DNA of 64,000 bases from Patescibacteria group bacterium. Lineage in GTDB: Bacteria; Patescibacteriota; Patescibacteriia; 2-01-FULL-39-33. The translations under genes and the position numbers were made by a program. Shown piece after piece: positions 3,257 to 61,188 of this stretch; position 1 is the first letter of the stretch; each line of letters begins with the position of its first letter. The stretch is taken from assembly GCA_041650895.1 (NCBI GenBank), contig JBAZKF010000001.1:765181-829180 (forward strand), read 5' to 3'. The notes beneath the pieces are model-generated. The model made no database searches. It saw only the letters and a program-made list of their open reading frames with translations, and had not been told where the DNA came from.

Positions 3257-3543
3257 ATCATGGCTTGTAATCCGACGCTATTCTGTTCTATCGTAAATAG
3301 TTTTCCTTTTCTTTTGGCCGACACCGGATAACCGTTGGTGTAAGTCGCGTTCCCATCGGGGTGTTTCTACTTGGCCGACTTGATCTGATGGCGGAGTGGC
3401 TTCATAAAACTCCTCGCCGTTTTTATCAGTGTAAATGTGGCGTCCTCTGTCGCAGTTTTCGGGATTTAGCATATTTTTGTCGTTATTTGTATGAATTATA
3501 ACTCTTGAGCCGAAAAAATCAAGCAGTGGCAATTCTGAGTAAA

Positions 3544-41000: not shown

Positions 41001-44000
41001 TCAGAGCTGTAAAGATGAGGACAATCTGCCTTCACCGACCCCTTCGGACAAATGGACGATAGTTATTCCCGGAGTAACTAACTCAGACGCCTGTTTAAAC
41101 GCCGCAATTTCAGCTAGGTTCAATCGACCAATGGATAAAAGGTCATTAACTGAAATAGATTCAGTGGCGCCGGGTTGGAAAAATTTGAAGATTTATAAAA
41201 AAGATAGTGCCGGAGATTGGCAGTCGGTAGTGCCCAATGGTTCTTTTGGTTCTTATGCCAGTCGCGATTTTGGCAGTCCTGATTTGTTTGATTATTTTGA
41301 ATTCATGCCTCAAAGCTTGGAGCCTGATGCCGATTATAAAATAATGCTTACTAACGGGGTTGTCAGTTATGAAGGATTTCCTCTATATATAGATAATCAG
41401 GCGTTGCAGTCATCAGGTTGCGATGATCCGGTAAGATTTCCCAATGCTGCTTTCTGTTGGAACTTCCATACTCGCAGTCAAAGTGATAATGATAAATATT
41501 GTCGCGTTGGTTGTGTGCACTGCTCGCCGCAGAATTTTGTTAATCGTTATTATGGCCAAGAGCGGCCACATAAATCCGATATTGTTAGCGAGGATAATGT
41601 TTGTATCATACTCAATGCCGACACCTATAATTGGAGCTGGCAGGAAGAGGAGCAGACTAATGATGCTTGGAGTAGGGGGACGATTAATTATTCCATCGTT
41701 AATGATTTTGTCAGATCAAAAGCCACCTCTACGGCGCAAAAAGAAACTGATTGGCGGACTTATCAGGATGCCCTATTTACTTCTTCCGATAAGAGTTATT
41801 TTAGGATTGCCAGTATAGAGTTGACCACCAGCAATCAAGGCTCTTGCCCGGGTCATAATAATTTTACCGATCCGATCGTTGTAGAGAATCCTATTTGTAG
41901 CGTGGGTGATAATGGCCTGGTTGGAAAGTTACAAAGCCCCTCGCCGTTTAGGGGTACCACCACCCCGGCTTGCATTAATGCTTCATTGATGGCGTTATTT
42001 AGCCGTAACATGGTAAACGCTACCTTAGACAAGTCACGTATCAAAGTGCAAAAATGCACCGGAACAGATGCCGCCGGCAATGTGTTGTCCACTAACCTAA
42101 ACGCCTGCGCCGATGTTGATTTTAGTAAATGGCAATTGGACATGTTTAATTATAGCCATAATGATTTGTCTTGGCAGGAGACTTTCAGCGCATCAGCCGA
42201 AGAATACGATTCTCTCGCAGCCGAAGGCATTCGCTTGAGTCCATTTAATGCTAACGGGCCCACCCGGCTTGATCCCAATACTTTTTATCGTGTTATAATT
42301 TTAGGTGGTGATAATGGTGTCAGGGGAGCTAAAAGCCAACAGGGCACTAATGAAATAAAAGAAGGCATTTTGCAAACGCCGTCCTTGGGTGATAATTATT
42401 TTAGCGACGGGCAAAATGATTATTTTTGGTATTTTTTGACGGGCGCGGTTGATTGTCCGATTGATTTTGTCGGTGTTTTGCCCCAGAGAAAACTAATGAG
42501 GTACGCCGATGAGAGTCAGATTTATATTGCTGATCCGCAGCATAACTGTCAGCACTTGAATCCTTACTTGTATGCCTGGCAATGGAGTTCACTGCTCAAT
42601 TTGAGTGATGAGAATACGACTTGCAATGCCACTACCGGTAATACGGTGGCGCAGATTTGTCCTTCCACCAGTGTCAGCGCTTGCGCTACGTACGCCGGTA
42701 CTGCTCCAACAGTGAAAGTATTTGGAAAAAGCGAGGGTTTTGTTAATGTCAAAGTCAGGGCCGTGGGATCGGCTCCAGCCGGAGGAACTTGTTCTTCCGA
42801 TAAATGGGGTCGAGGCGAACTACAAATCGGTTATGGCGGATTTAAAGTAGTTAATCCGACTAATGATGCTTGTTTGAATACCGAGATTAGGTTTAAATTT
42901 ACTACTGATGCCATCAGTGCCAGCTTAAGAGGGAATGATAATATACTTCTGTATAAATGTGCTGTCGGCGATGCGGCCTGCGCTATCAGCGACGCTTATC
43001 AACCTATTAGTTTACTTTATCCCATTTCGACTGAACAACAGTTCACTAATGAAGTCGTATTGCAAGCCAATGATCTGTTAACCGCGGCCACTCCTTATCG
43101 TGTCGTGGTTCGGGGCGGGCCACAGGGGCCGGTATCTTTTGCCAACTCCCAATTAGGTGGCCTGAATTACGCCACTAGTCAAGGTAAGGGTAGCGAGCAA
43201 TGCGATCCTACAGTTTATCCTTTCCGTTTAGGTGATCCTTATAACGGTCTTTGCGATGCTACTACCTGTTTAATCAAAAAAGGTGAAAATTTGTGCGATA
43301 CGTCTTTGGCCGAGTGTTCGGCTCAAGATGCGGCTTTAGTCGCTTATTATAAATTTACTGCCGGGAGTAGTTTAAGTGACAGCTCTGGCCATAATTATGT
43401 TTTGCGATCGGCTGGCACTACCGCTGTTTCTTTTGTTGGTAGTCCCTTCGGTCAAGCGCCCAAATTTGTTGGCACGGCTGGGCAGACTGCTTTGGAAGCG
43501 GTGAGTTCAGCTGGTTTAATCAGCCAATTGGAAAACAGTAGTCCTTTGACGGTTTCAGCTTGGGTCAGATTGGATAACGGAGTTTTGGGCAGATCTGACA
43601 CCGATGATTCTCGCGGCTTGGGCGTAATCGCTTCAACTTACAAATATGGCGGCGATATTTCTTCACAGTTCAGGGGTTGGACCTTGGGCGATGACTGGGG
43701 TTGTTCCTTGCGTTGGGGATGTCCGGCGCCTGATGAAATATTTTTCCAGATTTTTGATAATAACGGTCAGCGTGCCGTTGTAACTTATCGCGATTTTTTC
43801 CGCAATTACGGCAGTAAGTGGACGCTAGTTACGGGTGTCTTTGTCCCGGGAGATAGTGTTAAGTTATATATTAATGGCCAGGAAGCGGGGAGTGTAAAAA
43901 CTTCAATTTCTGCCGTCGCTTACGATTCTGCTACGCCATTAAGAATCGGCCAGCGCGCTGATTATTTGGACCAGGGACAATGGGATGGTTTGGTTGATGA

Positions 44001-47000
44001 GTTAAAAGTTTATAATCGTGTTTTATCGGCGGAGGAAATCAACAAACTGTATTCGTCCGGCGATTATTGCGATCAACTTTGCCGCGCTAAAGGTAATTCC
44101 AATTTAGCATCTTGTGGCAATAAATCAGTTGAGCCGGGCGAAGATTGCGATGATGGTAATATTAAAAATAATGACGGATGTTCCTCAGTCTGTTTGTGGG
44201 AAGGCGCCAATGCACGTTGGAATTCCCGCTGTGGCAATGGCCGAATTGAATATGGCGAACAGTGCGATGACGGCAATATTAATTCTGGCGACGGTTGCGA
44301 TTCCAAATGCTTGTATGAAACTGGTTATGCTGCCGGAACCAGTAAATATAGCGCTCTTAATTGTTCTGATAATAATATTAGTACAACTACAGTGACAGTC
44401 AGTGAACGCCCCGTCGTTGCTTCCAAGATTTGTTTTAAGAATTCCGCGGGCTGTACTGAGAATTGTTTGCATACTGGCTCTGCGCCGAACGCACCAGTGT
44501 GCGGTAATGGCCAAATAGAAATCGGGGAAGAATGCGATGATGGTTTAGGAAGAAACGGAATCGGTCAGCGTTGCGGTCCTATTTGTTTACTTAACTCGGC
44601 CGAAGGAAGCGGTACTTGTCAGAATAATAAATTAGATAGCGCTTCCCTAGACAGTTATTCTTGGACCTTCCAACTAGATCAGAACGTCCAATATTGCGAA
44701 CCATTTGCTATTGGTTTGAATCCGTGTCCCAACGGTATTTGGCAATTCCATCCGGCTAAGGATGTTAGTGCATTCACTATAACTTTATACAAAGGATATA
44801 ACGGCAGCGCCAAACCAAGCGTTGACTGTGTTGCCGCTAATAGTTTAGGCTTTTGGCAACGCACTATTAAACAATTAGTGTCGTTTGTTAAACACATGTT
44901 TGGTTTGCGTTCAGTTATGGCTGCTGATTATTGGTGCAAGCTTTCAGAAAAGTCCTTTGATTCCATTGACCTACAGCAAATGCGCTGGGGTAATTTTCAG
45001 GATAGCGCCAGTTTTACCACCAAGGAGGGAATCACGAATAATCTGGAAATAATCGGTTACTCCGTTGATAATGACAGTTATGAGTTAAATTATATTAACA
45101 AGGACAATAATTGGGAAGCTAATACCGAGTATCGCGCTGTGGCTAGTTACGTCAAGTCTAAAGTTAATGCTACTACTTCGGCTACGGTTTTGACTTTTGC
45201 CGCCGCTTGCCCGATAAAAAGAGTTACTGCTAATGTTTGGCCGAAAGGCAGTGAAAAATCGGTTGACTCCTTTTTGTGCAATTCTGATTCAGATAATGGC
45301 CAACCCGATAATTGCGGCCGTTATTCCGACGATCCTTACGATGATGATATGTCGGCAGCTTGGACCGGCGATCCCAGTCAAAGTGGCTACAATTTAGATG
45401 CTAATGGCGCTCCGAGCGCGAGCAACCAAGATTATAAATCAGGCAACCAGCATTTATATCGCGCTTGGGCCAGGGATACCCATGATTATCCCTTACGCGC
45501 GACTTTTTATTGGGATTTGGTCAACTTCAATACAGACATGGCTTTTTCCAATATTGATTATACCAGTAATAACAGCTTTGATATCTGGATGACCGCTGGA
45601 AAAATAATGGGTAAGAGCGTTTTATCCATCGGCGCAATCGATAGAAGTGCGGCCAATAACCGTAGCGTAGGCGCGGCGACTGGCACTATGTCTATCATGA
45701 ATGTAGAATGCGGTAATCCTTGGCCGTCACCACAATATTTCCCCTTTGAGGATACTAATGTCAATTGTAAAGATACTGATAGCGGCAGTTGCATTAATAC
45801 TAATTTCTGGACTTGGTATTGCCGAGACAGGGGAATTATTAATGTTTGCGTGATGGGTGATAATACCGGTAAAGTCTGTCGAACACAAAGCGATTGTTTT
45901 GCCAATGGCCAATATGTGGAGGGTAGTTGCCGTTTGTATCAAGACGATGATTTACCGTCGATCGGTGATTTTACCTATGATAGCGCTACTAGTATTATTA
46001 AGCCGAAGACGGCAGTGGTGATAGGCAGTCAGGATAATACCTGCGCTAATTTGCCCAATGCTTTTGTACCTAAATTCGGTTATTTCAATAATGAAGATAG
46101 TAAACTTTATTTATGGAACAGTAAGGCCGAGGTTTATGCCAGAGAAAGCATTACCGGCGGAGAGAGTTGGCAAAAGATTGATAAAGCGTCCTGGCAAACG
46201 TCCGGTTTGCCTGCTAACTTTAAACCAATCTTGGGCTACTACTATAAAGATAGTAATAGTAATTGTACTGCAGAGCCAGTCCAATTATGGGATGCCGTTG
46301 GAAAATATTTAGTATTAAAGAACGGCCAATGGATAGAAGGCAGTAAATATGTTGGACCAAAAGACAGTCTGCCGGCTAGTTTTCATCCTATTGCCGCTTA
46401 CACTTATACCTTAACGATAAGTGGCAGCAGAAAGACTTATTTAGAAGTGATGGATGTGAATGGCAGTTATGCCTATTGGCAACAGCCCAACTCATGCAAT
46501 AATGCTAATGATTTTGCGCGTTGGTCGGAAATAAAGAAAAAAGAGACCCGTGGCTTACCGGCTGATTTCAAGTTAGCGACCGCTTATAGTTCTGGTAATG
46601 TTTTGCATATTTGGAGTGTCCGAGGCGATCATTATAGAGCAGATGCCACGGGTAGCGGATTTATCTTTAATAAAGACGACTCAGTCAAACCGGGTTTAAT
46701 TTCTGATTTTAAACCGGTTATTGCTTATTATGATAACGCTTACGCCGGTCTGAGTAATCCGGCTGAAGTCATTTCGGACGGCCAGTTTTATTATTATAAA
46801 ACTGGTAGCACCTGGGATCGGTTTACTTTGCAAGAAAAAGATTGCGACTCTAAAGTCAAGGAGTTTCTCTTTACCCGCAGTACTACTGCCTCTGCCGCCG
46901 CTGAAGCGCAAATTTATTTGATGGCCAAAGATGCTGATTTTAGCGACGTTAATTCCGTTTGTGGCGCTGATATTAATTGCCAGCCGCAAGTTTGGACCGA

Positions 47001-50000
47001 CGGCAGTACGGTGCAAATGAACGCTAATTACAGCGGTTTGAAATTCAATTTTGATGTTAAATCGAAAGGCAAATATTATGTTTTCATTCAAACCTCTGAC
47101 AGTGTCAGAGATTTACCCAATATAGTACAAAATGTTGATTTAAAAGTGGATAATAACCCAACTTCAACCAATAGTATTGAAGCCAGCGCTCCCAGTGATC
47201 AGCAAACAACTCGTTTTGGCACGACCGCAGGTGATGCCTATGAATTGGAACGCGGTTTCCATAGCGTGTTGGTTCGTTGGACTAATGATACTCCGGCTGG
47301 ATCAGCTGATGATTCCAACTTCCGTTTGTATAACGTCCGGTTAGTTAAACAGGAATCGGCCGATTTATTGGATGCCATCGGTATTAGGGTGTATGACAAT
47401 AACAGTCATTATTCCCCGATTCGCTGGTATGCCGATCGTTTTGGCGGCAAAGATGCTAATCCGAAGTCTTTGTTGGTTGACGGTTATCAGGCGATTTCTG
47501 ACGGCCGAACGGTTTATGTAGCGGCGGCTGATTTGAATGATGGCGCCAATAAGGCTTACAGCAGTGTCTATTTGATGTCTTATAATTTGAATGCCAACCA
47601 GTCAACAGTAAATATTTTTAACCAGTTGGTGGGTAATTGGGAATTCAATGTCGGCGATAATACGACAGTAGGACATGAAGGTGGTTTGTATTATAACGAT
47701 GCGAGCAGTAACTTGCAAAGTTGTGATAACAATCCGTCTGGTTCGGATTATTGCTTGACTGACATTGACTGTTTAAAGCGCGGCCAGAATTATTGTCTGT
47801 CACAAAAAGCAAAATTGATTCGTGACACCAATCGCTTAGCCGATGTACAAGAGATAAACGTTAAATTGAAGAGCTACTACGATCAAACTCGTTGCAGTAA
47901 TGATTCAACCAAAGCATGTAAGACTACGGCCGATTGTTTTGGTAGCGGTGTTTGCGGAAATTATTACCCCAATTTGAAATCAGGCACTTATATTGCGAGT
48001 AAATCTTACAGTGCTTGGCCGTCTTGGCAACAAACTTTAGCCGCGGCCTTAGGCGGTAATCTTCCGGTTGATCCGATTAATAAATTTTTCGGCTGTAGTA
48101 GCCCCGCTTCCTCAGGAACTTGCTGGAATGAGGATGCCAAGGCTATGACTTGCCCCTCACCTGCTTCCGCAGTCTATTCTTACGCAGTAGCGGATTCCGG
48201 CAATTCGATTATTTTATCAGTCAAACAAGAGTTCAGTAATAATCCTAATATTTGGCAGCCATCATGGCGTTTAGTGCCGGGACTGATGTATTACAATAAT
48301 GCCTCAGGATTAAGGCAGAATCCCTTTGAGTCTTATTTAGTTTCTGGTATGTGCGAGGTATTGCTTCCAACTTGTGGCAACGGTCGAACGGATACAGGAG
48401 AGAATTGCTCCAATTGTTATTTAGATAACGCTTGCTCAATTCTTAAGTCCTGCCAGAATCAAGGTGGTAATTGGGGTTGTTATGATATAACCAACTGCGG
48501 AAATGGCATTAAGGATCCAGGCGAGGATTGCGATGGCGGGGTTGGTTGCACTAGCTGCCGATGTGATAACGGTTATAATTGTTCCGGTCAAACGCCATTT
48601 CCTGTTTGCGGTGATGGCTTAATCAGGGGTGATGAAACTTGCGAATTTGATCCGGCTACAGGTAAGGCGTTTTGCGAAGCGACGGCTGGTTCTGGTTGTT
48701 GCTGTCGTTATCCTACCGACCCTGGCTGTAGCGGCTTTTGCCAATGCAAACCTGGTTATAATTGTTCCAGTCAGACAGCGGTGACAAATTGCGGCAATGG
48801 CATTAAGGAGCCGGGTGAAAGTTGCGATTGCGGTAACACCGGCTATACGCCTTTGCCGAAGCCGGCGTTTAATATTTTTGAGTGTTTGACAAACAATGGC
48901 GATAATAATCAACTCTATTCCAATTCAAGAAAAGGCGACAGCTATCAATCATGTTCAATTGATTGCCAGGCAGTAGCCAGCGTAAAGTTCGCTTATTGCG
49001 GTGATGGTATAATTAACGGCAGCGAGCAATGTGATTCTAGCCAATGTTGCGATAGGTCCTGTAATTGGATTATAGAAAATAAACCAGATGATGATCAGCC
49101 GGGAATAACCACTAAATGCAATGGTGATATTTCTCAGAATATCGGCGAGTGCGCTATCGGTTACCAGTGGATATCAAGAATTGGTTGCGAACCTCGAGTG
49201 GGGCAAATTTGCAATGAAGCGGGCAACTGCCAATGCGATACAGCTAATAATTTTATTGATCAAAACCCCGATCCTAATTTGGCCGTGTGCGTTTGTAAAA
49301 CCGGTTATGTGTTGCAAGGCAATATTTGCAAAGCCATACCGCTAGGCCAGAAATGCCAAGATTTGGAGAATTCCGTGTCCCTGGGCAATGGTACTTGCAC
49401 TACTTGTCAAGAATGGTGTAATTTAAGCGAAAACCCTGGCGGTAGTGTTGTTCATCCGAATTATTATTTTTATTTAGAGCATCCTGGGTTTATCTGGCCG
49501 GTAAATGTTGACCCCTGCCAACAGAGCATAGTTAAAGGTGATGCTTGTTCCGTCCCGAGTACTTGGTCTTGCGAACGTTCCCTGGCTAATTCTTGTTCAG
49601 ACTATTCTGCTTGCAAAACAGAAATAAAATACGGTCCCTATTGTGGCAATAATATTTGGGATAGCCAATGGGAGACTAATAAAATTAACGACGAATCGGC
49701 CGATCCTACGGTCGATGGCAGTAATACTTATCCTAAGATTTCCAATTTAAGTTTCTGTTCTGATGCGCCAACTGGAAACCTATCTGATCCTAATTCTCCT
49801 TTAGATTGGAATTTGCCGGCTCAAACTGTCACTGATAATGTTAATGATTACATATTATGGAAGAGTAATGTTCCGCCCCAAGCCACGCAAAGCAGTTGGG
49901 AGGTGCATCTGTTGCCTTATCGTGGTGAATGTGTTTTGGGCAATTCTCTTTCGTTTGATAATGAGTTTTTGGGTTCTGTTACAGAAGAAGGTCCGTATCA

Positions 50001-50625
50001 AATAAGCGCCAAAGAAAAATATAGCAATAGCACTGAATCTTTACTTTTATTGTTTTTAAAGCCTTCAGGAATAGCTTGTTTTATGGCCAATTGGGATACG
50101 GATCGGGATTATAATTGTTGGTGGGGATGCCCGGGTGTACATTATCGAGCGGGTGAAACCATTTATAGTCCTGTAGGACGCAGCGATGGCAACGCCAGTA
50201 CGTTCACTATGAGTAACTCTTCCGGTTTCGCCTGCACTAATAACGGCGTGGTTACTAGCAATAATCAATTTTTGCTTTATGATAAAGATTGTAAGTTGAT
50301 TTCCGGCCAAACTCTTTCTAACGGGGCTTATACTAGTAACTTAAAATATCATCAGCCGGTTAAGATTAGATTTTTACGTGCTTATCAAGATGGTCAGAAT
50401 TATGTTATAGAAGACAAATGGTTGAGTATGGACAACGCGAGCAATCTAGTTACGGGAATGGCTGCTTCCACTGAGGATACCCAGGGATATACCGGCGCCA
50501 CTTTGTCTTCTTACAGTAGTTTTGCGGCTAAGCCATTAATCAACTGTACTAGCACTTGCAGTTCTATCGCTGGTTCCGCTAATTATTGTTTTGAATTCAG
50601 AAATCGCTGGGGTAATATTGAATAA
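38044..50625 (+). CDS. mega-protein (4193 aa): VirB2/TrbC-like pilin anchor + lamin-tail domain + LamG/ConA-like lectin + Myxococcus-type Cys-rich repeats + many Cys-rich/beta modules
   Basis: One uninterrupted 12.6-kb ORF. The LTD is 'EEWVEIYNPTASDISLDNWRIVYSG'. The LamG domain is 'LTVSAWVRLDN...LYINGQEAG...WDGLVDELKVYNRVLSAEEINKLY'. The Cys-rich repeats are of the form 'CGNGRIEYGEQCDDGNINSGDGC'. Confidence 0.8.
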   Translation: MPLKRKVQLKIVLSLLTLAVVFAVGNFALAQAPSAPTLESLSGVFGTASLGVIIGRILQVLFGLLGVVVVLLIIYGGFIWMTAGGDPDKVNKAKKTIYNAIIGLVIIFSAFAITSFLMYWFNPQSQACNPDDIRSCSSGGCSGQQICGDDRIWGSCAQTDPNCVPNCIGVDCLFDATKKRATICEFSDPAFPNWLPQRRSRECSIGFFGSVQVPKSPTLQVRVYSYNSEDTISDLSLFDLKNSTETQIGAVNVSSQTVTINGQQYNAASTTFPWDTFSVEYRDLTSTTLRSFANSKSYYSNKVQIKFSPDHCFNGKKDADEQGIDCGGGCTQNCPDFPCTRPENLVCDDVNCTNYCGANCYCVGNPTISWVDPSFDINSDSDLSSISTLDDDIGYGASGNYLTIYGRGFGQIVGEVRFVAKGDGVVILARLADCVTAWQDNKIIIEVPAGLNSVNDLPANYDIEVINKTKPQMPLTSNTWSFLANNIKLPGLCLIDPTSGIFPTAVDLNGRGFTADGASKVIWYIRNVGVNFGNLIGITSTAATSWTSTAVKDIVPENKRGSSAVKVYNKGYSNSVLFNIGNGSEGDPCGENIGSDPAVCLASSEDCKNNLSCQGCSNRVEDIGKWFYRADCDMGKNCTCQKSVGQECVYNSDPEQNAITGCDLGGCLGKRTCRADNTWGTCVKEDPNCVSYLGVTPASLGLYSWSFLASLAPQSGRRCLSDLWHDGTCDPQNCGSNLGCDTTKSDEEWVEIYNPTASDISLDNWRIVYSGKQESVDDLLNDGSAVTYYIPRGVTLKVGDYFVVSTSTLSPSNNFKLNKNQGTIAFVKDQEDEVADVVVYGSSTVAFSPGSWGRKVDGLDTGSVSDFIYFSNSSAGQENAVGKSSSTDHLVINEISLAHDACTCVPKTQLCTPNQVDLKSCPVLGNCKQQRVCQTSGHWGGCEPLPNQVCYPTGQQASLSLYSWTFLATHELGPKKFYVVVDCSRNQSCKDEDNLPSPTPSDKWTIVIPGVTNSDACLNAAISARFNRPMDKRSLTEIDSVAPGWKNLKIYKKDSAGDWQSVVPNGSFGSYASRDFGSPDLFDYFEFMPQSLEPDADYKIMLTNGVVSYEGFPLYIDNQALQSSGCDDPVRFPNAAFCWNFHTRSQSDNDKYCRVGCVHCSPQNFVNRYYGQERPHKSDIVSEDNVCIILNADTYNWSWQEEEQTNDAWSRGTINYSIVNDFVRSKATSTAQKETDWRTYQDALFTSSDKSYFRIASIELTTSNQGSCPGHNNFTDPIVVENPICSVGDNGLVGKLQSPSPFRGTTTPACINASLMALFSRNMVNATLDKSRIKVQKCTGTDAAGNVLSTNLNACADVDFSKWQLDMFNYSHNDLSWQETFSASAEEYDSLAAEGIRLSPFNANGPTRLDPNTFYRVIILGGDNGVRGAKSQQGTNEIKEGILQTPSLGDNYFSDGQNDYFWYFLTGAVDCPIDFVGVLPQRKLMRYADESQIYIADPQHNCQHLNPYLYAWQWSSLLNLSDENTTCNATTGNTVAQICPSTSVSACATYAGTAPTVKVFGKSEGFVNVKVRAVGSAPAGGTCSSDKWGRGELQIGYGGFKVVNPTNDACLNTEIRFKFTTDAISASLRGNDNILLYKCAVGDAACAISDAYQPISLLYPISTEQQFTNEVVLQANDLLTAATPYRVVVRGGPQGPVSFANSQLGGLNYATSQGKGSEQCDPTVYPFRLGDPYNGLCDATTCLIKKGENLCDTSLAECSAQDAALVAYYKFTAGSSLSDSSGHNYVLRSAGTTAVSFVGSPFGQAPKFVGTAGQTALEAVSSAGLISQLENSSPLTVSAWVRLDNGVLGRSDTDDSRGLGVIASTYKYGGDISSQFRGWTLGDDWGCSLRWGCPAPDEIFFQIFDNNGQRAVVTYRDFFRNYGSKWTLVTGVFVPGDSVKLYINGQEAGSVKTSISAVAYDSATPLRIGQRADYLDQGQWDGLVDELKVYNRVLSAEEINKLYSSGDYCDQLCRAKGNSNLASCGNKSVEPGEDCDDGNIKNNDGCSSVCLWEGANARWNSRCGNGRIEYGEQCDDGNINSGDGCDSKCLYETGYAAGTSKYSALNCSDNNISTTTVTVSERPVVASKICFKNSAGCTENCLHTGSAPNAPVCGNGQIEIGEECDDGLGRNGIGQRCGPICLLNSAEGSGTCQNNKLDSASLDSYSWTFQLDQNVQYCEPFAIGLNPCPNGIWQFHPAKDVSAFTITLYKGYNGSAKPSVDCVAANSLGFWQRTIKQLVSFVKHMFGLRSVMAADYWCKLSEKSFDSIDLQQMRWGNFQDSASFTTKEGITNNLEIIGYSVDNDSYELNYINKDNNWEANTEYRAVASYVKSKVNATTSATVLTFAAACPIKRVTANVWPKGSEKSVDSFLCNSDSDNGQPDNCGRYSDDPYDDDMSAAWTGDPSQSGYNLDANGAPSASNQDYKSGNQHLYRAWARDTHDYPLRATFYWDLVNFNTDMAFSNIDYTSNNSFDIWMTAGKIMGKSVLSIGAIDRSAANNRSVGAATGTMSIMNVECGNPWPSPQYFPFEDTNVNCKDTDSGSCINTNFWTWYCRDRGIINVCVMGDNTGKVCRTQSDCFANGQYVEGSCRLYQDDDLPSIGDFTYDSATSIIKPKTAVVIGSQDNTCANLPNAFVPKFGYFNNEDSKLYLWNSKAEVYARESITGGESWQKIDKASWQTSGLPANFKPILGYYYKDSNSNCTAEPVQLWDAVGKYLVLKNGQWIEGSKYVGPKDSLPASFHPIAAYTYTLTISGSRKTYLEVMDVNGSYAYWQQPNSCNNANDFARWSEIKKKETRGLPADFKLATAYSSGNVLHIWSVRGDHYRADATGSGFIFNKDDSVKPGLISDFKPVIAYYDNAYAGLSNPAEVISDGQFYYYKTGSTWDRFTLQEKDCDSKVKEFLFTRSTTASAAAEAQIYLMAKDADFSDVNSVCGADINCQPQVWTDGSTVQMNANYSGLKFNFDVKSKGKYYVFIQTSDSVRDLPNIVQNVDLKVDNNPTSTNSIEASAPSDQQTTRFGTTAGDAYELERGFHSVLVRWTNDTPAGSADDSNFRLYNVRLVKQESADLLDAIGIRVYDNNSHYSPIRWYADRFGGKDANPKSLLVDGYQAISDGRTVYVAAADLNDGANKAYSSVYLMSYNLNANQSTVNIFNQLVGNWEFNVGDNTTVGHEGGLYYNDASSNLQSCDNNPSGSDYCLTDIDCLKRGQNYCLSQKAKLIRDTNRLADVQEINVKLKSYYDQTRCSNDSTKACKTTADCFGSGVCGNYYPNLKSGTYIASKSYSAWPSWQQTLAAALGGNLPVDPINKFFGCSSPASSGTCWNEDAKAMTCPSPASAVYSYAVADSGNSIILSVKQEFSNNPNIWQPSWRLVPGLMYYNNASGLRQNPFESYLVSGMCEVLLPTCGNGRTDTGENCSNCYLDNACSILKSCQNQGGNWGCYDITNCGNGIKDPGEDCDGGVGCTSCRCDNGYNCSGQTPFPVCGDGLIRGDETCEFDPATGKAFCEATAGSGCCCRYPTDPGCSGFCQCKPGYNCSSQTAVTNCGNGIKEPGESCDCGNTGYTPLPKPAFNIFECLTNNGDNNQLYSNSRKGDSYQSCSIDCQAVASVKFAYCGDGIINGSEQCDSSQCCDRSCNWIIENKPDDDQPGITTKCNGDISQNIGECAIGYQWISRIGCEPRVGQICNEAGNCQCDTANNFIDQNPDPNLAVCVCKTGYVLQGNICKAIPLGQKCQDLENSVSLGNGTCTTCQEWCNLSENPGGSVVHPNYYFYLEHPGFIWPVNVDPCQQSIVKGDACSVPSTWSCERSLANSCSDYSACKTEIKYGPYCGNNIWDSQWETNKINDESADPTVDGSNTYPKISNLSFCSDAPTGNLSDPNSPLDWNLPAQTVTDNVNDYILWKSNVPPQATQSSWEVHLLPYRGECVLGNSLSFDNEFLGSVTEEGPYQISAKEKYSNSTESLLLLFLKPSGIACFMANWDTDRDYNCWWGCPGVHYRAGETIYSPVGRSDGNASTFTMSNSSGFACTNNGVVTSNNQFLLYDKDCKLISGQTLSNGAYTSNLKYHQPVKIRFLRAYQDGQNYVIEDKWLSMDNASNLVTGMAASTEDTQGYTGATLSSYSSFAAKPLINCTSTCSSIAGSANYCFEFRNRWGNIE

Positions 50626-56616: not shown

Positions 56617-56650
56617 AAATCCGGCCTGTGGATAAGGCCGGATTTTTTTA
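56617..56650 (+). terminator. rho-independent terminator after ftsZ
   Basis: Perfect 8-bp stem atccggcc/ggccggat with a 9-nt loop, followed by TTTTTTT. Confidence 0.7.
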
Positions 56651-56683
56651 AAAATTTTAAAAAAACCCTTTAAAATTAACGTT

Positions 56684-56712
56684 TTGACACACCCACTGAC
56701 TGAGGGTATAAT
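56684..56712 (+). promoter_or_regulatory. perfect consensus sigma70 promoter TTGACA-17-TATAAT for nrdD
   Basis: TTGACA at 56684-56689, a 17-nt spacer and TATAAT at 56707-56712. The ORF-track start (TTG 56684) is actually the -35 box. Confidence 0.6.
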
Positions 56713-56806: not shown

Positions 56807-58855
56807 ATGGAAACTCAGATTAAACAGGTAAGGAAGCGCAATGGCGACATTGCTGACTTTGACCAGAAAAAAGTTACCGCTGCTTTATATAAGGCTTTGG
56901 TAGCAGTGGGGCGCGATGACCAGGATTTGACTCAGGTCCTGTCTGAAAAGGTGGTGCATATAATTAATAGTAAATTCCACCCGCGGTCTATTCCGGCCAT
57001 TGAGGAAATTCAAGATGTTGTTGAAGAGGTTTTGATTAAAGATGATTTAGTTAAGGCGGCTAAGGCTTACATCATTTACCGCGAGCAGCATTCCCGTTTA
57101 CGTGAACTCAAGAAGTTGCTTAATTCCAATGACATTATTGAAGGGTATCTGAATAAAATCGACTGGCGCGTCAAAGAAAATGCCAATATGGCCTATTCTT
57201 TGCAAGGCTTGAATAATCATGTGGCCTCGGCAGTATCTTCTCATTATTGGCTCAACAAGATTTATCCTCCGGAGATCAGGAATGCTCATAACGACGGTAC
57301 GATGCATATTCACGATCTCCAGCTTTTGGCCGTTTACTGTTGTGGCTGGGACCTTCAGACTTTGTTACGATTGGGTTTTGGCGGCGTGGAAGGAAAGGTG
57401 CAGAGCAAGCCGCCTAAACGTTTCCGCGTGGCTTTAGGCCAGATTGTTAATTTTTTCTATACTTTGCAAGGCGAAGCGGCCGGCGCTCAGGCCTTCGCTA
57501 ATTTTGACACTTTGTTGGCCCCATTTATCAGATATGAGGGATTAGAGTATAATCAAGTTAAGCAGTCCATGCAGGAATTTGTGTTTAACATGAATGTGCC
57601 GACCAGGGTAGGGTTCCAGACGCCCTTTACCAACTTAACCTTTGACCTGGTTTGTCCCTCAACCTTAGCCAATGAGCCGGTTCTAATCGGTGGCATTCCA
57701 CAACGCGAAACCTACAAAGAATTTCAGCGAGAGATGGACTTGATCAATCGCGCTTTTGCCGAAGTAATGATGGAAGGCGATGCTAGGGGGCGTGTTTTTA
57801 CTTTTCCTATCCCGACTTACAATATTTCTAAGGATTTTAATTGGCAAAATGAGGTACTTAATCCGATTTGGGAGATGACCGCCAAATATGGCATACCGTA
57901 TTTTGCCAATTTTATTAATTCGGACATGAAAGCAGAAGATGCCCGGTCCATGTGTTGTCGTTTGCGTTTGGATAATCGGGAATTGCGCAAACGCGGCGGA
58001 GGTATGTTTGCCGCCAATCCTTTGACCGGCTCAGTAGGCGTGGTAACGATTAATTTGCCCCGCATTGGTTATCTGTCTAAAGGCAATGAAGAAATGCTTT
58101 TTTCTCGTTTGGCCCAGGTAATGGATTTAGCCCGCCAGTCATTGAAATTGAAGCGTGGAATTCTGGAGAATTTTACCGAGATGGGCCTATATCCCTACTC
58201 CCGTTATTTCTTGAATGACATTAAAGAGCGGTTTGGACAATATTGGCGCAATCATTTCAATACGGTCGGCATTAATGGCATGAATGAGGCAGTTTTAAAC
58301 TTTTTAGACAAACCACTTAGCTCCAAAGAGGGCGGGGAGTTAGCCAGTAAAATGATGGATTTCATGTTGCAACGTCTGGTGACTTTTCAGGAAGAGGACG
58401 ACCAATTGTATAATTTAGAAGCTACACCGGCCGAAGGAGCGACTTATCGTTTTGCTAAAAGGGATAAAGAGCTTCACCCTGATATTTTAGTCGCTAATGA
58501 AGGGCAGTATAAAGAACGGGGAGCTGCCCCTTACTATACAAACTCCACTCATTTTCCAGTTAATTATTCAACCGATATTTTTGATGTTTTAGAGAAGCAG
58601 GATAATCTGCAAATAAAGTATACCGGCGGTACCGTAGTCCATATTTTCCTAGGCGAAAAGATGCCAGATATTGAGAGTACTAAAAACCTAGTGAAGAAGG
58701 TCGCCGAAAGCTTTCATTTGCCTTACTATACTTTGACCCCGACTTTTTCCATCTGTCCTAAGCATGGTTACTTGCCAGGCGAGCATCGTTATTGTCCGAT
58801 ATGCGATGACGAAATCGGTTATATCAGAGAACAAAAGGAGAAATTACCATTGTAA
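56807..58855 (+). CDS. nrdD: anaerobic ribonucleoside-triphosphate reductase (class III), ATP-cone + catalytic barrel + Zn ribbon, lacking the canonical C-terminal glycyl-radical tail
   Basis: ATP-cone 'VRKRNGDIADFDQKKVTAALYKAL', the NrdD-like core, and a C-terminal 'CPKHGYLPGEHRYCPICDDE'. The ATG at 56807 is preferred over the TTG at 56684. Confidence 0.85.
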   Translation: METQIKQVRKRNGDIADFDQKKVTAALYKALVAVGRDDQDLTQVLSEKVVHIINSKFHPRSIPAIEEIQDVVEEVLIKDDLVKAAKAYIIYREQHSRLRELKKLLNSNDIIEGYLNKIDWRVKENANMAYSLQGLNNHVASAVSSHYWLNKIYPPEIRNAHNDGTMHIHDLQLLAVYCCGWDLQTLLRLGFGGVEGKVQSKPPKRFRVALGQIVNFFYTLQGEAAGAQAFANFDTLLAPFIRYEGLEYNQVKQSMQEFVFNMNVPTRVGFQTPFTNLTFDLVCPSTLANEPVLIGGIPQRETYKEFQREMDLINRAFAEVMMEGDARGRVFTFPIPTYNISKDFNWQNEVLNPIWEMTAKYGIPYFANFINSDMKAEDARSMCCRLRLDNRELRKRGGGMFAANPLTGSVGVVTINLPRIGYLSKGNEEMLFSRLAQVMDLARQSLKLKRGILENFTEMGLYPYSRYFLNDIKERFGQYWRNHFNTVGINGMNEAVLNFLDKPLSSKEGGELASKMMDFMLQRLVTFQEEDDQLYNLEATPAEGATYRFAKRDKELHPDILVANEGQYKERGAAPYYTNSTHFPVNYSTDIFDVLEKQDNLQIKYTGGTVVHIFLGEKMPDIESTKNLVKKVAESFHLPYYTLTPTFSICPKHGYLPGEHRYCPICDDEIGYIREQKEKLPL

Positions 58856-58917
58856 ACATAAGATAGGAATCGGAATCTGAATCGTTAATTTTAAATTATT
58901 AACTAATTTAAAATAAT

Positions 58918-59088
58918 ATGGAAGGTGACAACAAAGAAATTTTAAGGCAGCCCTGCGAAGTTTATTCGCGGGTTGTTGGTTACATTAGGCCGGTAGATCA
59001 ATGGAATCCAGGCAAGCAGTCGGAATTCACTGATCGCAAGACCTTTGATAACTGTCGGACTTGTTCCGTGGAAGAACTGCCGGTTTAA
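58918..59088 (+). CDS. 56-aa standalone ORF encoding an NrdD-type glycyl-radical loop (RVVGY...WNPGKQSE...R) plus CxxC
   Basis: 'MEGDNKEILRQPCEVYSRVVGYIRPVDQWNPGKQSEFTDRKTFDNCRTCSVEELPV'. It is in a different frame from nrdD. A 62-nt AT-rich gap with in-frame stops separates it from nrdD. Confidence 0.5.
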   Translation: MEGDNKEILRQPCEVYSRVVGYIRPVDQWNPGKQSEFTDRKTFDNCRTCSVEELPV

Positions 59089-59106
59089 GGGTATTTTACT
59101 TTTACT

Positions 59107-59793
59107 ATGAGAATAGGTGGTCTTCAGCCGGTTACATTATTGGATTATCCGCAAAAAATGGCAGCAATCGTATTTACCTACGGGTGTAATATGCGCTGTC
59201 CTTTTTGTTATAATCCGCAATTGGTTTTGCCTGGCCTGCCAGCTGATAGGCTGTACGATGAAGATCAAGTGATTAATTTTTTAAAGCGACGAAAAAAATA
59301 TCTTGATGGTTTGGTTATTACCGGTGGCGAGCCGACATTACAAAAAGGACTAATAGGATTTCTTGCTAAAATGAAGAAAATCGGTTACTCTGTTAAATTA
59401 GATACTAATGGCTTATTGCCGGAGTCGCTTAAAGATTTATTGGATCGAGAATTGGTTGATTATATTGCTATGGATATTAAGGGGCCACTCGAAGAATATG
59501 AAAAATATGCCGGTGTTACGCCTGAAGGCGTTGAGAAAAGTATTGCTTTAGTGATGTCCAGTGGTTTGCCTTATGAGTTCAGAAGCACTTTAGTTAAAGG
59601 ATGGCATAACCGGACGGATATTGCGATTATGGCGGAAACAATCAAAAATGCCGATTTATATTATTTGCAGAATTTTCAGGACAGTGAGTGTTTGGCTGGT
59701 AAAGATTTTTCCGGTAAGCCGTTTTTTAAAAAAGAATTGGAGGGATTTCGTCAATTAGCGGAAGACTGGGTGAAGAAATGTGTTATAAGATAA
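59107..59793 (+). CDS. nrdG: anaerobic ribonucleotide reductase activating protein (radical SAM)
   Basis: 'FTYGCNMRCPFCYNPQ' is the CxxxCxxC radical-SAM cluster. It sits next to nrdD. Confidence 0.8.
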   Translation: MRIGGLQPVTLLDYPQKMAAIVFTYGCNMRCPFCYNPQLVLPGLPADRLYDEDQVINFLKRRKKYLDGLVITGGEPTLQKGLIGFLAKMKKIGYSVKLDTNGLLPESLKDLLDRELVDYIAMDIKGPLEEYEKYAGVTPEGVEKSIALVMSSGLPYEFRSTLVKGWHNRTDIAIMAETIKNADLYYLQNFQDSECLAGKDFSGKPFFKKELEGFRQLAEDWVKKCVIR

Positions 59794-60086: not shown

Positions 60087-61188
60087 ATGAATGATTTATT
60101 AATAAAAATTAAAGAGCTGCAAGATAAAGTAGCCGCCACTTGGAGGTTACTTTGACCCCGATCAAGCTGAAAAAGAACTGAAGCAATTGGAAGTCAAGAT
60201 GTCTAAGCCGGAATTTTGGTCTGATTCCGAAACCGCCAAGGCCGTGAGCAAACAGTATGATGATTTAAAAAAAGAGGCGGCGACTTGGCAAAAGTTAACC
60301 GATAGTTTGGTAGAACTTTTGGAATTGTCGAAAATTTTCGACAGTAGCGGAGAGTTGGATGGTCATCAGTCCGAGTTAACGGATAAATTACAGCAACTGC
60401 AAGCAGAATATGACCGCTTGGAATTTGCTGTTTTATTTTCTGGTAAATATGATAAAGAAAATGCGGTATTTTCGATTCATGCCGGCACTGGCGGCGTAGA
60501 TGCGATGGATTGGGCGCAAATATTAGTCAGAATGTATTTGCGTTTTTGTGAACGTCACGGTTTTGAAGCTAAGATTATTGATGAAACAGCGGGTGGCGAG
60601 GCCGGAATCAAATCAGCAACTATTGAGGTGACTGGGCGTTACGCTTATGGCTGGTTGAAGGCCGAGGGAGGTGTGCACAGATTGGTGCGTATTTCACCGT
60701 TTGACGCGGAGAAAATGCGCCATACTTCCTTTGCTTTGGTGGAGGTGTTGCCAGAATTAGAGGAAGTGGAGTCTATAGAAATTAAAGATGAAGATATTAA
60801 AGTGGAGGCTTTCCGCGCTGGCGGTCATGGTGGCCAATCGGTCAATACCACTGACTCCGCTGTCCGCCTGACTCATTTGCCGACCGGTATCGCCGTTAAG
60901 TGTCAAAATGAAAGATCACAGTTGCAAAATAAGACTAAAGCGCTGAAAATTTTAAAGTCAAGGCTATTACAGTATTATCAGGAAGAGGCTGGACAGAAGA
61001 AAGAAAAAATCAAAGGCGAATATCGCCAGGCTCAGTGGGGCAATCAGGCTCGCTCCTATGTCTTGCAGCCTTATCGCTTAGTTAAAGATCATCGCACTGG
61101 TTATGAGACGGCCGATACTGATCGAGTACTTGACGGAGAAATTGATGATTTTGTCGGCGCTTACCTTAAACAACAAGCCGGAAAGTAA
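60087..61188 (+). CDS. prfB: peptide chain release factor 2, with programmed +1 ribosomal frameshift (CUU UGA C) at 60150-60156
   Basis: The frame-0 leader 'MNDLLIKIKELQDKVAATWRLL' ends at UGA. SD-like GGAGG lies 3 nt upstream of CUU. The +1 frame continues 'DPDQAEKELKQLEVKMSKPEFWSD...'. The SPF motif 'RISPFDA' and GGQ 'AGGHGGQSVN' are present. Confidence 0.85.

What the first reader, a model, noticed from the sequence alone, without database searches (positions are those of the whole stretch)
58780..59106. NrdD glycyl-radical loop encoded as a separate 56-aa ORF between nrdD and nrdG
Seen in sequence: the class III RNR ORF ends '...FSICPKHGYLPGEHRYCPICDDEIGYIREQKEKLPL*' at 58855. It has a Zn ribbon but lacks the canonical C-terminal 'RVCGY....N.GKQ.E...R' glycyl-radical tail. 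After a 62-nt AT-rich gap with in-frame stops, a new ATG (58918) opens a 56-aa ORF in another frame: 'MEGDNKEILRQPCEVYSRVVGYIRPVDQWNPGKQSEFTDRKTF DNCRTCSVEELPV'. That ORF contains exactly the motif the large ORF lacks (RVVGY / WNPGKQ). The large ORF's own tail also carries a 'GYIR' (DEIGYIRE) that is not a nucleotide-level duplicate of the small ORF. Established knowledge: E. coli GrcA/YfiD is a standalone glycyl-radical 'spare part' that rescues oxygen-cleaved pyruvate formate-lyase. Inference: this is either a true two-piece NrdD or a detachable or replaceable radical module, analogous to GrcA for RNR. Alternatively the gene is disrupted or a pseudogene.
Basis: partly seen in the sequence, partly recalled or inferred. 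Interest (0 to 1): 0.65.

Follow-up and report, generated by a model that had tools for sequence, protein, structure and literature searches.

The report
Two-gene anaerobic ribonucleotide reductase
In this ultra-small (Patescibacteria/CPR) bacterium, the oxygen-sensitive enzyme that makes DNA building blocks is encoded in two genes, with the 56-residue piece that carries the catalytic glycyl radical made as a separate small protein; the split is conserved and under selection in hundreds of relatives, and related stand-alone radical pieces also occur in phages.

Summary
nrdD-large (56807-58855, 682 aa) has an ATP-cone, the barrel and a complete C-x2-H-x9-C-x2-C zinc ribbon, and stops 16 residues after the ribbon. 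After a 62-nt gap, a 56-aa ORF (58918-59088) in another frame supplies the missing RVVGY/WNPGKQ glycyl-radical hairpin. nrdG follows at 59107. The two ORFs tile the NrdD profiles without loss.

The best 120 homologues of the small ORF are all 44-65 aa. The best 120 homologues of the large ORF all lack the radical domain and share a new tail motif, C-D-x-E-I-G-[YF]. Window versus its nearest relative shows dS about 1 and dN/dS about 0.01-0.02 for both pieces.

Gap length (-29 to +146 nt) and relative frame vary among lineages. In a Synergistota type, nrdG sits between the two pieces. The net charges of the large-subunit tail and the small-subunit head are anticorrelated (rho -0.77, 42 pairs).

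Best reading: an obligate two-subunit class III RNR whose radical domain docks in trans. The GrcA analogy is mechanistic only. In this window the small protein is the sole radical carrier, not a spare. I found no description in the searched literature. Phage contigs carry many stand-alone NrdD-type radical modules. AlphaFold runs were uninformative on docking.

The parts
56684..56712 (+). Sigma-70-type promoter of the nrdD-large / small / nrdG operon (TTGACA-17-TATAAT, 12 of 12).
   Evidence: sequence. A hairpin followed by a T-run, read by eye as the ftsZ terminator, lies just upstream (about 56620-56651). No notable terminator or promoter lies between the three genes.
56807..58855 (+). nrdD-large: class III RNR catalytic body (682 aa) with ATP-cone, NxN flap, alpha/beta barrel with finger-loop SMCCR, and zinc ribbon. 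It lacks the glycyl-radical hairpin.
   Evidence: NF006126 1015.6 bits against cut-off 548; profile 2-653 of 684. 120 of 120 best homologues also lack the radical motif. dN/dS about 0.009 versus L004.
58754..58804 (+). Zinc-ribbon ligands C650-x2-H653-x9-C663-x2-C666, all in the large subunit.
   Evidence: Invariant in alignment A3. Aligns to the TmNrdD CxxxHx6CxxC Zn site.
58805..58852 (+). New C-terminal tail of the large subunit, DDEIGYIREQKEKLPL. The clade-wide motif is D-x-E-I-G-[YF], followed by a variable charged stretch.
   Evidence: The motif is absent from intact NrdDs, which read CxxC-x3/5/8-CEVYSR. The charge of the variable part anticorrelates with the charge of the small-subunit head.
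58856..58917 (+). 62-nt AT-rich intergenic spacer. Its last 35 nt (58883-58917) are 34/35 identical to the nearest relative, although synonymous sites are saturated.
   Evidence: No Rfam match. No Shine-Dalgarno, as for about two thirds of long ORFs in this window.
58918..59088 (+). nrdD-small: 56-aa glycyl-radical subunit. It has a head MEGDNKEILRQP, a hairpin CEVYSRVVG21YIRPV, WNPGKQSEFTDR, and a tail with C-R-T-C.
   Evidence: Versus L004: 14 synonymous and 0 nonsynonymous changes in the first 44 codons; 20 and 3 over all 56 codons. Named 'anaerobic ribonucleoside-triphosphate reductase' (MFA5124963.1) in NCBI.
58978..58980 (+). Codon of Gly21, the predicted radical glycine (RVVG*Y).
   Evidence: Invariant in A1, A3 and A5. 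Aligns to Gly621 of TmNrdD (RIVGY).
59107..59793 (+). nrdG: radical-SAM activase (228 aa).
   Evidence: TIGR02495 NrdG2, 198.2 bits against cut-off 131. Found next to the split pair in related loci.

Best explanation
This is a functional class III (anaerobic, glycyl-radical) ribonucleotide reductase that has undergone gene fission into two subunits.

The 682-aa large subunit keeps the ATP-cone, the NxN flap, the ten-stranded barrel with the thiyl-radical finger loop, and the complete zinc ribbon. The 56-aa small subunit is the beta-hairpin that carries the radical glycine (Gly21), plus the short helix that follows it.

The cut lies in the 3-5-residue linker that joins the zinc ribbon to the strand leading into the glycine loop in one-piece enzymes. 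All three genes are transcribed from one promoter, and the small ORF is translated from its own ATG.

Inferred steps:
- The small subunit inserts its hairpin into the barrel opposite the finger-loop cysteine, as the covalently attached domain does in T4, T. maritima and P. copri NrdD.
- NrdG abstracts the Gly21 hydrogen, either on the free peptide or while it is swung out.
- The two termini created by the fission hold the pieces together. These are the large-subunit tail (D-x-E-I-G-Y plus a charged stretch) and the small-subunit head, and the contact is partly electrostatic.

Because oxygen cleaves glycyl-radical proteins at the glycine, damage in this architecture destroys only a 6-kDa peptide. 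That may be the selective advantage, but it is not shown.
For: Shown:
- The two ORFs tile the NrdD profiles exactly.
- The zinc ligands C-x2-H-x9-C-x2-C are all in the large piece, and the split maps between CPVC609 and Gly621 of TmNrdD.
- The top 120 hits of the small ORF among 5.8 billion proteins are all 44-65 aa. 149 of the best 150 cluster representatives among 1.84 billion are no longer than 166 aa.
- 120 of 120 best large-subunit homologues (64-98% identity) lack the radical motif and carry C-D-x-E-I-G-[YF].
- The large-small-nrdG synteny is seen in Dojkabacteria, Buchananbacteria, CPR2 and many other Patescibacteria. Across 166 related loci, 46 are split with both pieces in view and 102 are intact.
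- The CPR split forms make one clade in a neighbour-joining tree.
- Versus the nearest relative, dS is about 1-1.6 with dN/dS 0.009 for the large piece and 0.02 for the small piece.
- Gaps range from -29 to +146 nt in all three relative frames. Clear GGAGG sites precede the small ORF in several lineages. A Synergistota type has the order large-nrdG-small on a 2.95-Mb contig and in independent assemblies.
- Tail and head net charges are anticorrelated: Spearman -0.77, n = 42 unique pairs, with no (-,-) pair.

From the literature:
- The Gly is buried and the whole C-terminal domain must move for activation (PMC4493059).
- The radical domain of P. copri NrdD is mobile and invisible in inactive states (PMC11226230).
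Against: - There is no biochemical or proteomic evidence that the peptide is made, binds, or carries a radical.
- Both AlphaFold2 runs gave pLDDT below 50 for the glycine hairpin, so there is no structural support for docking or for the tail-head contact. One run used the fused large+small sequence and one a 'healed' one-piece control.
- The charge correlation is not corrected for phylogeny.
- The function of the invariant I-G-Y in the large-subunit tail is unexplained.
- The neighbour-joining tree is crude.
Confidence: 0.82

Rival explanations
1. Exchangeable 'radical cartridge' (strong GrcA-like reading). The small protein is a freely dissociating, replaceable cofactor-like subunit. It is activated off-enzyme by NrdG and swapped after oxygen cleavage or radical loss. 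That turnover is the reason for the fission. This reading extends the best explanation and does not exclude it.
For: - GrcA/YfiD does exactly this for oxygen-cleaved PFL (review PMC13450708).
- The radical domain of one-piece NrdD already undocks as a unit.
- 65 of the 80 best viral loci carry a stand-alone NrdD-type radical ORF, with no NrdD-body-like or NrdG-like ORF within 4 kb. Seven of these loci were checked against phage protein families, and six have phage structural, lysis or replication genes. This implies these modules can work with a partner encoded elsewhere.
- The Synergistota gene order separates the two pieces.
Against: - The conserved tail motif and the charge-matched tail/head suggest a stable, co-evolved complex rather than promiscuous exchange.
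- There are no data on stoichiometry, exchange or oxygen response.
- Only 4 kb on each side of the phage modules was inspected.
Confidence: 0.3
2. Frameshift artefact or decaying pseudogene. On this reading the real gene is one ORF, or the gene is dead.
For: A single window with a stop and a frame change near the 3' end of a gene is what an indel error would look like. One related locus (L051, Saccharicrinis) does look like a simple frameshift with overlapping frames.
Against: - The same architecture occurs in hundreds of independent assemblies and species.
- dN/dS is about 0.01-0.02 for both pieces at dS of about 1.
- Tail and head sequences specific to the split forms are conserved.
- Gaps and frames differ among lineages, so no single indel restores one ORF.
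Confidence: 0.01
3. One polypeptide is still made, by recoding (frameshift, read-through or bypass), RNA splicing (a group I intron as in T4 nrdD), or protein trans-splicing (a split intein).
For: RNR genes are famous targets of introns, inteins and homing endonucleases (PMC3653736). Inteins are present elsewhere in relatives' large subunits (1004-1333 aa forms).
Against: - The gap is 62 nt here (range -29 to 146 nt elsewhere), not conserved between lineages, and has several stops. Relative frames vary.
- There is no Rfam match.
- The tail (8-30 aa) and head (8-25 aa) are far too short for split-intein halves. They also lack the required N-terminal Cys/Ser and C-terminal His-Asn (intein requirements from general knowledge).
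- In Synergistota, nrdG lies between the pieces.
Confidence: 0.02
4. The small ORF product does not complete the large subunit. Instead it regulates or titrates NrdG, or it serves another glycyl-radical enzyme, and the truncated large subunit has a different, radical-independent role.
For: None directly. It is considered because phage copies occur without a visible partner.
Against: - The large subunit keeps all catalytic hallmarks under strong constraint: NxN flap, SMCCR finger loop, ATP-cone.
- It always co-occurs with the small ORF and nrdG.
- The small ORF is most similar to the NrdD C-terminus and not to PFL-type radical domains.
Confidence: 0.03

Closest known systems
One-piece class III RNR NrdD of the T. 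maritima type (NCBIfam NF006126/PRK08270; structures 4COI, 4U3E) with activase NrdG
   Same: Same family by sequence: ATP-cone, NxN flap, barrel, SMCCR finger loop, a Cys/His/Cys/Cys zinc ribbon, an RVVGY radical hairpin, and an adjacent nrdG.
   Different: The radical hairpin is a separate 56-aa polypeptide. The large subunit ends in a new conserved tail (D-x-E-I-G-Y...), and the small subunit has a new N-terminal head. Intact relatives have only 3, 5 or 8 residues between the ribbon and CEVYSR.
GrcA/YfiD, the autonomous glycyl radical cofactor ('spare part') of pyruvate formate-lyase
   Same: A small stand-alone protein that is homologous to the C-terminal radical domain of a glycyl-radical enzyme and works in trans with a body lacking that domain.
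   Different: - GrcA is PFL-type; this protein is NrdD-type, with no Gly_radical Pfam hit.
- GrcA coexists with a full-length PFL and rescues it after oxygen cleavage. Here the body never has its own radical domain.
- The 2026 review states that formate lyases are the only GRE class with known spare-part proteins.
Split class II RNR NrdJa/NrdJb (Pseudomonas aeruginosa) and the genes-in-pieces NrdA-a/NrdA-b of Aeromonas phage Aeh1
   Same: An RNR catalytic subunit encoded by two adjacent genes that reassemble. In Aeh1, extra interaction segments at the new termini mediate assembly.
   Different: The RNR class is different. The cut here removes precisely the radical-bearing element. No homing endonuclease or other ORF lies at the split site in this window.
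Intron- or intein-interrupted nrdD of phages (T4 nrdD group I intron, Lactococcus phage 949, Aeromonas phage phiAS4)
   Same: nrdD appears as more than one coding segment.
   Different: Those are interruptions by mobile elements or recent fragmentation at other positions. Here there is no intron or intein at the junction, and the split is ancient, conserved and under selection.

Membership tests
Class III RNR catalytic subunit (NrdD) | NRDD barrel domain scoring above curated family cut-offs | tested here: met
   PF13597 at 604 bits; NF006126 at 1015.6 bits against cut-off 548.
Class III RNR catalytic subunit (NrdD) | Finger loop with the thiyl-radical cysteine, and the NxN flap | tested here: met
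   S381-M-C-C-R385 and N125/N127 are invariant in 37 split and intact sequences. Motif definitions come from PMC4493059 and PMC11226230.
Class III RNR catalytic subunit (NrdD) | Zinc ribbon between the last barrel strand and the glycine loop | tested here: met
   C650-x2-H653-x9-C663-x2-C666 aligns to the TmNrdD Zn site.
Class III RNR catalytic subunit (NrdD) | C-terminal RVxGY glycyl-radical hairpin on the same polypeptide | tested here: not met
   It is absent from the 682-aa ORF and from all 120 best homologues. It is supplied by the separate 56-aa ORF.
Class III RNR catalytic subunit (NrdD) | Dedicated radical-SAM activase NrdG encoded alongside | tested here: met
   TIGR02495 at 198 bits against cut-off 131, at 59107-59793.
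Class III RNR catalytic subunit (NrdD) | NTP reduction dependent on a glycyl radical | not testable with these tools
   Needs enzymology and EPR.
GrcA/YfiD spare-part proteins | Small stand-alone protein consisting of a GRE radical domain | tested here: met
   56 aa; matches NRDD profile positions 531-562 only.
GrcA/YfiD spare-part proteins | Homology to the PFL C-terminus (Pfam Gly_radical) | tested here: not met
   The only Pfam hit is NRDD.
GrcA/YfiD spare-part proteins | Coexists with a full-length parent enzyme that has its own radical domain and is rescued after oxygen cleavage | tested here: not met
   The adjacent parent lacks the domain. Whether an intact NrdD exists elsewhere in the genome could not be checked.
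Split RNRs assembled from two gene products (NrdJa/b, Aeh1 NrdA-a/b) | Two adjacent ORFs that together cover the full-length family profile | tested here: met
Split RNRs assembled from two gene products (NrdJa/b, Aeh1 NrdA-a/b) | Physical reassembly into an active enzyme | not testable with these tools
   There is only indirect support: conserved tail motif and tail/head charge complementarity. AlphaFold2 was uninformative.
Intron/intein-interrupted nrdD | Self-splicing RNA or intein at the junction | tested here: not met
   62-nt gap, no Rfam hit, and no intein-sized or intein-like termini.

The most novel reading that the evidence does not exclude
NrdD-type glycyl-radical domains form a family of free-standing, exchangeable 'radical cartridges'. 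In a large Patescibacteria clade, and in some Synergistota, DPANN and Hippea, the cartridge is the only radical carrier of the RNR and can be replaced after oxygen damage. Phages encode their own cartridges, either short or with a zinc ribbon, to load or rescue the host's RNR body during infection. This would be the first spare-part or trans-acting radical-domain system outside the formate lyases.
Probability: 0.3. Interest if true: 0.85.

Novelty: new variant of a known kind. Interest (0 to 1): 0.7.

Why it matters
All characterised class III RNRs carry the radical glycine on the same chain as the active site. A central unsolved problem for all glycyl-radical enzymes is how the buried glycine loop leaves the barrel to meet its activase.

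A natural enzyme whose radical loop is a separate 6-kDa peptide gives a direct handle on that problem. Three questions become testable:
- Can the loop be activated off-enzyme?
- Does it exchange?
- What holds it in place?

It would also extend the 'spare part' idea beyond pyruvate formate-lyase.

It matters for annotation too. Pipelines name both pieces 'anaerobic ribonucleoside-triphosphate reductase'. Completeness or pseudogene filters may misjudge the only RNR of many CPR genomes.

The phage-borne stand-alone modules suggest a previously unnoticed kind of auxiliary gene for nucleotide supply.

Tried and rejected
- **AlphaFold2, fused large+small.** I used a custom alignment of intact homologues and small-only rows. 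Mean pLDDT was 72, but residues 648-705 (ribbon, tail, head, glycine loop) were below 50.
- **AlphaFold2, 'healed' one-piece control.** It was equally poor for the hairpin (677-715 below 50). The failure therefore reflects the shallow alignment, and nothing can be concluded about docking.
- **MAFFT misalignment.** With many large-only rows, MAFFT scattered the small-only rows across the large sequence (A2) or aligned the intact radical hairpin (VVGY) onto the large-subunit tail (IGY) (A4, A6). I treat this as a lead that the tail may be a degenerate duplicated hairpin, not as evidence. Only three residues are shared clade-wide.
- **Intron, intein or recoding.** Rejected on gap size, variability, absence of an Rfam hit, and termini that are not intein-like.
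- **Internal promoter or terminator.** Only a weak 9/12 promoter-like match lies at 58890-58917.
- **Zinc shared between subunits.** I considered whether Cys13 of the small ORF is a zinc ligand. This is not needed, because C/H/C/C are all in the large piece and Cys13 is equally conserved in intact enzymes.
- **Literature.** Seven full-text searches found no description of a split NrdD or an NrdD-type spare part. The library holds open-access papers only, so absence is not proof.
Full report
**1. What is in the sequence**

The region reads as the first-stage reader described. A long ORF ends ...FSICPKHGYLPGEHRYCPICDDEIGYIREQKEKLPL with TAA at 58853-58855. A 62-nt AT-rich spacer follows, with several stops in that frame. 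ATG at 58918, in a different frame, opens a 56-aa ORF: MEGDNKEILRQPCEVYSRVVGYIRPVDQWNPGKQSEFTDRKTFDNCRTCSVEELPV (stop at 59086-59088). A 228-aa ORF starts at 59107.

The profile searches give a clean tiling.
- Pfam NRDD is matched at positions 1-533 by the large ORF and 531-562 by the small ORF.
- NCBIfam NF006126 (ribonucleoside triphosphate reductase) is matched at 2-653 (1015.6 bits, cut-off 548) and 649-682 of 684.
- The third ORF is NrdG2 (TIGR02495, 198 bits).
- Nothing of the family model is missing or duplicated.

The mechanically listed TTG start at 56684 is actually the -35 box of a perfect TTGACA-17-TATAAT promoter. The real start is ATG 56807. This gives 682 aa, the length of more than 100 homologues. 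No convincing promoter or terminator separates the three genes, so they look like one operon.

TGA is a true stop in this organism. The neighbouring prfB carries the canonical GGAGG-N3-CTT TGA C +1 frameshift site.

**2. The split is not an artefact or a pseudogene**

Searching 5.8 billion proteins with the small ORF gave 262 hits, and the best 120 are all 44-65 aa. Where sources name an organism, it is Patescibacteria, Parcubacteria, Dojkabacteria or Buchananbacteria. An exhaustive HMMER scan of 1.84 billion cluster representatives gave 3238 hits. Of the best 150, only one is a full-length NrdD.

Searching with the large ORF gave the converse result. All 120 best hits (64-98% identity; 676-705 aa, or about 1004 aa with an intein) lack any R[VI]xGY motif.

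Related loci show the same three-gene arrangement.
- On a 729-kb Dojkabacteria contig the order is nrdR, nrdD-large (1333 aa with inteins), a 46-aa ORF after a 19-nt gap, then nrdG.
- In 166 loci fetched from GTDB species representatives and JGI metagenomes, I counted 46 split with both pieces in view, 12 split with the large piece outside the fetched stretch, and 102 intact.

Comparison with the nearest relative (L004) shows strong purifying selection.
- Synonymous sites are near saturation (dS about 1.0-1.6).
- dN/dS is 0.009 for the large ORF and 0.02 for the small ORF. The first 44 codons of the small ORF have 14 synonymous and 0 nonsynonymous changes.

No single indel could restore one ORF across the clade.
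- The distance from the large-ORF stop to the small-ORF start ranges from -29 to +146 nt, in all three relative frames.
- Strong GGAGG sites precede the small ORF in several lineages.
- This window's AT-rich leader lacks a Shine-Dalgarno, but so do about two thirds of its long ORFs.
- In a Synergistota type (Acetomicrobium-labelled MAG; also a 2.95-Mb contig and independent assemblies) nrdG lies between the two pieces.

These facts rule out sequencing error, recent decay, recoding and splicing. Rfam finds nothing in the region. The termini are far too short and of the wrong chemistry for a split intein.

**3. Where the cut is**

The T. maritima NrdD paper describes the relevant anatomy (PMC4493059).
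- A zinc ribbon sits between the last barrel strand and the C-terminal loop that carries the radical glycine.
- In that enzyme the zinc is bound by CxxxHx6CxxC.
- The buried glycine must undergo a large movement, probably together with the whole C-terminal domain, to reach the activase.

Here the ligands are C650-x2-H653-x9-C663-x2-C666. They are all in the large subunit and invariant in split and intact relatives.

Alignment to TmNrdD places PCEVYSRVVG21Y of the small ORF on KVDEYMRIVG621Y, directly after CPVC609-GKA. Intact relatives have only 3, 5 or 8 residues between CxxC and CEVYSR. Examples are GAN, TIKQP and AIEQP.

The fission therefore falls exactly in the short linker between the zinc ribbon and the first strand of the glycine hairpin. 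The small protein contains the whole hairpin plus the following helix.

In P. copri NrdD the entire radical domain is ordered only in the active monomer and invisible in inactive or dATP-bound states (PMC11226230). Undocking of this element is thus already part of the normal enzyme cycle.

**4. Features specific to the split form**

Every split large subunit of the CPR clade, and the Synergistota one, continues after the ribbon with C-D-x-E-I-G-[YF]. The commonest variants are DEEIGY (54 of 120), DEEIGF (18) and DDEIGY (11). Some proteins stop two residues after the motif. Intact enzymes have nothing like it.

After this motif comes a variable stretch. The small subunit begins with a variable 8-15-residue head before the conserved R-Q-x-C-E-V-Y.

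Across 42 unique pairs, the net charge of the variable tail and the net charge of the head are anticorrelated.
- Spearman rho is -0.77.
- The sign combinations are (-,+) 19, (+,-) 10, (+,+) 3 and (-,-) 0.
- Several lineages differ in pattern: acidic tail with basic head in Dojkabacteria, and basic tail with acidic head in CPR2.

The statistic is not phylogenetically corrected. It is nonetheless what one expects if the two new termini contact each other.

Two split forms lack the motif and look like independent fissions.
- A Hippea locus has coiled-coil-like extensions on both pieces (...KLEEIESEIQRLKRQLELEMEN... and MMTRDEILKRIEELEKAKKEIKG...).
- A DPANN (Iainarchaeum) locus nests among intact archaeal enzymes in the tree.

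In a neighbour-joining tree of the large subunits, the CPR split forms are one clade. They are separate from the intact NrdDs of Paceibacterota and relatives (a crude method).

The role of the invariant I-G-Y is unexplained. MAFFT repeatedly aligns it with the VVGY of intact hairpins. This could mean a degenerate duplicated hairpin, or it could be chance.

**5. How it most likely works**

Shown: two co-transcribed, separately translated, co-conserved genes together make up a complete NrdD, and an activase gene sits beside them.

Inferred:
- The peptide inserts its hairpin into the barrel as the tethered domain does.
- NrdG makes the Gly21 radical.
- The tail and head act as the tether.
- Oxygen damage would be confined to the small peptide.

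I could not obtain structural support. AlphaFold2 on a fused sequence gave pLDDT below 50 for residues 648-705. A healed one-piece control was just as poor in the hairpin. The runs are therefore uninformative, not negative.

**6. Comparison with what is known**

By sequence the pair belongs to the T. maritima-type class III RNR family. One defining feature, a radical hairpin on the catalytic chain, was tested and is not met by the large subunit alone.

It works like GrcA/YfiD in that a radical domain acts in trans. It is not a member of that family for two reasons: there is no PFL-type Gly_radical domain, and the parent enzyme has no radical domain of its own.

Split RNRs are known in other classes, namely NrdJa/NrdJb and Aeh1 NrdA-a/NrdA-b. 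Phage nrdD genes interrupted by introns, inteins or fragmentation are also known. I found no description of a conserved NrdD whose radical hairpin is a separate subunit. The library is open-access only.

Databases already hold these proteins, and both pieces are named 'anaerobic ribonucleoside-triphosphate reductase'.

**7. An unexpected extension: phage-borne modules**

Scanning IMG/VR with the small-subunit alignment gave 187 relatives. Of the best 80 loci, 15 contain an NrdD body. The other 65 carry a stand-alone radical-domain ORF, with no NrdD-body-like or NrdG-like ORF within 4 kb on either side.

The stand-alone ORFs come in two kinds.
- Short ones (45-70 aa) have CPR-like heads and match NRDD profile positions 531-562.
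- Longer ones (80-150 aa) have their own CxxC...CxxC ribbon and match from profile position 511 or 521 to 562.

I checked seven of these loci against phage protein families.
- Six have phage hallmark genes: minor head protein, baseplate, tail fibre, endolysin, HNH endonuclease or a DnaD-like loader.
- The seventh (L188) matched only glycosyltransferase families.
- In four of them (L172, L177, L178, L182) a phrog_7339 exonuclease gene lies immediately or closely upstream of the module.

This suggests that NrdD-type radical modules can function with a body encoded elsewhere. It is the best support, still indirect, for the exchangeable-cartridge reading.

**8. Verdict**

The 'two-piece NrdD' interpretation is supported, and the pseudogene alternative is refuted.

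This is a new variant of a known enzyme: a naturally two-subunit class III RNR. It is widespread in Patescibacteria, arose more than once, and has phage-borne relatives of the small subunit. Biochemistry is needed for every mechanistic step.

Noticed in passing
L172-L251 (IMG/VR loci), e.g. L172 about 4001-4126, L177 about 4001-4114, L176, L178, L182: 65 of the 80 best viral loci carry a stand-alone NrdD-type glycyl-radical ORF, with no NrdD-body-like or NrdG-like ORF within 4 kb. Six of the seven loci checked have phage hallmark genes. A phrog_7339 exonuclease gene lies immediately or closely upstream in four of them. This may be a phage auxiliary 'radical cartridge'.
   Followed up: partly
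P0128, P0151, P0159; L086/L179 6001-6441; L205, L216, L221, L222, L251: A second kind of stand-alone module of 80-160 aa. It includes its own CxxC...CxxC zinc ribbon plus the radical hairpin (NRDD profile from position 511 or 521 to 562), so it is cut before the ribbon and not after it. P0151 lies on a 90.8-kb phage-like contig next to a Phage_lysozyme2 protein.
   Followed up: partly
L040 (Hippea sp. MAG), large tail ends at 332, small ORF about 457-636: An independent-looking split at the same place but without the D-x-E-I-G-Y motif. Both new termini are heptad-like and charged (KLEEIESEIQRLKRQLELEMEN / TRDEILKRIEELEKAKKEIKG), suggesting a coiled-coil tether.
   Followed up: no
L081, L167 (2.95-Mb contig), L168: Synergistota-type split NrdD with gene order large (679 aa, tail DQEIGYSAKEIIS), nrdG, then small (50 aa). 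It occurs in a lineage with cultured relatives, which makes it a candidate for experiments.
   Followed up: partly
window 59053-59064 (C-R-T-C in the small ORF); P0001-P0120: 37 of the 120 closest small subunits have a cysteine pair (mostly C-x-C) in the C-terminal tail, often followed by acidic residues. 0 of 118 intact Paceibacterota NrdDs have this. It recalls the redox-active C-terminal cysteine pairs of class I/II RNRs. The function is unknown.
   Followed up: partly
window 58883-58917: The 35 nt before the small-ORF ATG are 34/35 identical to L004 although dS is about 1 in the flanking genes, whereas the first 27 nt of the spacer are unalignable. The stretch contains the inverted repeat GTTAAT-N8-ATTAAC. 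It is not conserved in more distant relatives, whose leaders are simply AT-rich.
   Followed up: partly
window 58805-58822 and homologues: The invariant I-G-[YF] in the large-subunit tail resembles the V-G-Y of the radical hairpin, and MAFFT aligns the two. It could be a remnant of a duplicated hairpin, a docking strand, or chance.
   Followed up: partly
L001 980-4981; P0276, P0280, P0317, P0320 and others: Many split large subunits are 1003-1333 aa because of intein insertions (LAGLIDADG / Intein_splicing hits) elsewhere in the barrel. Mobile elements are therefore active in these genes although none sits at the split site.
   Followed up: no
L249 (viral contig), small ORF about 3232-3336, NrdD body from about 3375: A viral contig with the order small ORF then NrdD body (with intein), the reverse of the bacterial arrangement.
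   Followed up: no
window 60088-61188: prfB with the canonical programmed +1 frameshift site (GGAGG TTA CTT TGA C at about 60144-60157). This confirms that TGA is a stop codon in this organism.
   Followed up: yes
window 19202-25822 and 38044-50625: Two giant ORFs (2206 and 4193 aa). Almost all long ORFs of the window are on the + strand, and about two thirds lack a Shine-Dalgarno.
   Followed up: no
L051 (Saccharicrinis MAG) about 3854-4138: Here the 'split' is a plain frameshift with overlapping frames and no new tail or head. It is probably a sequencing error or a pseudogene, and it is a useful contrast to the genuine split forms.
   Followed up: no
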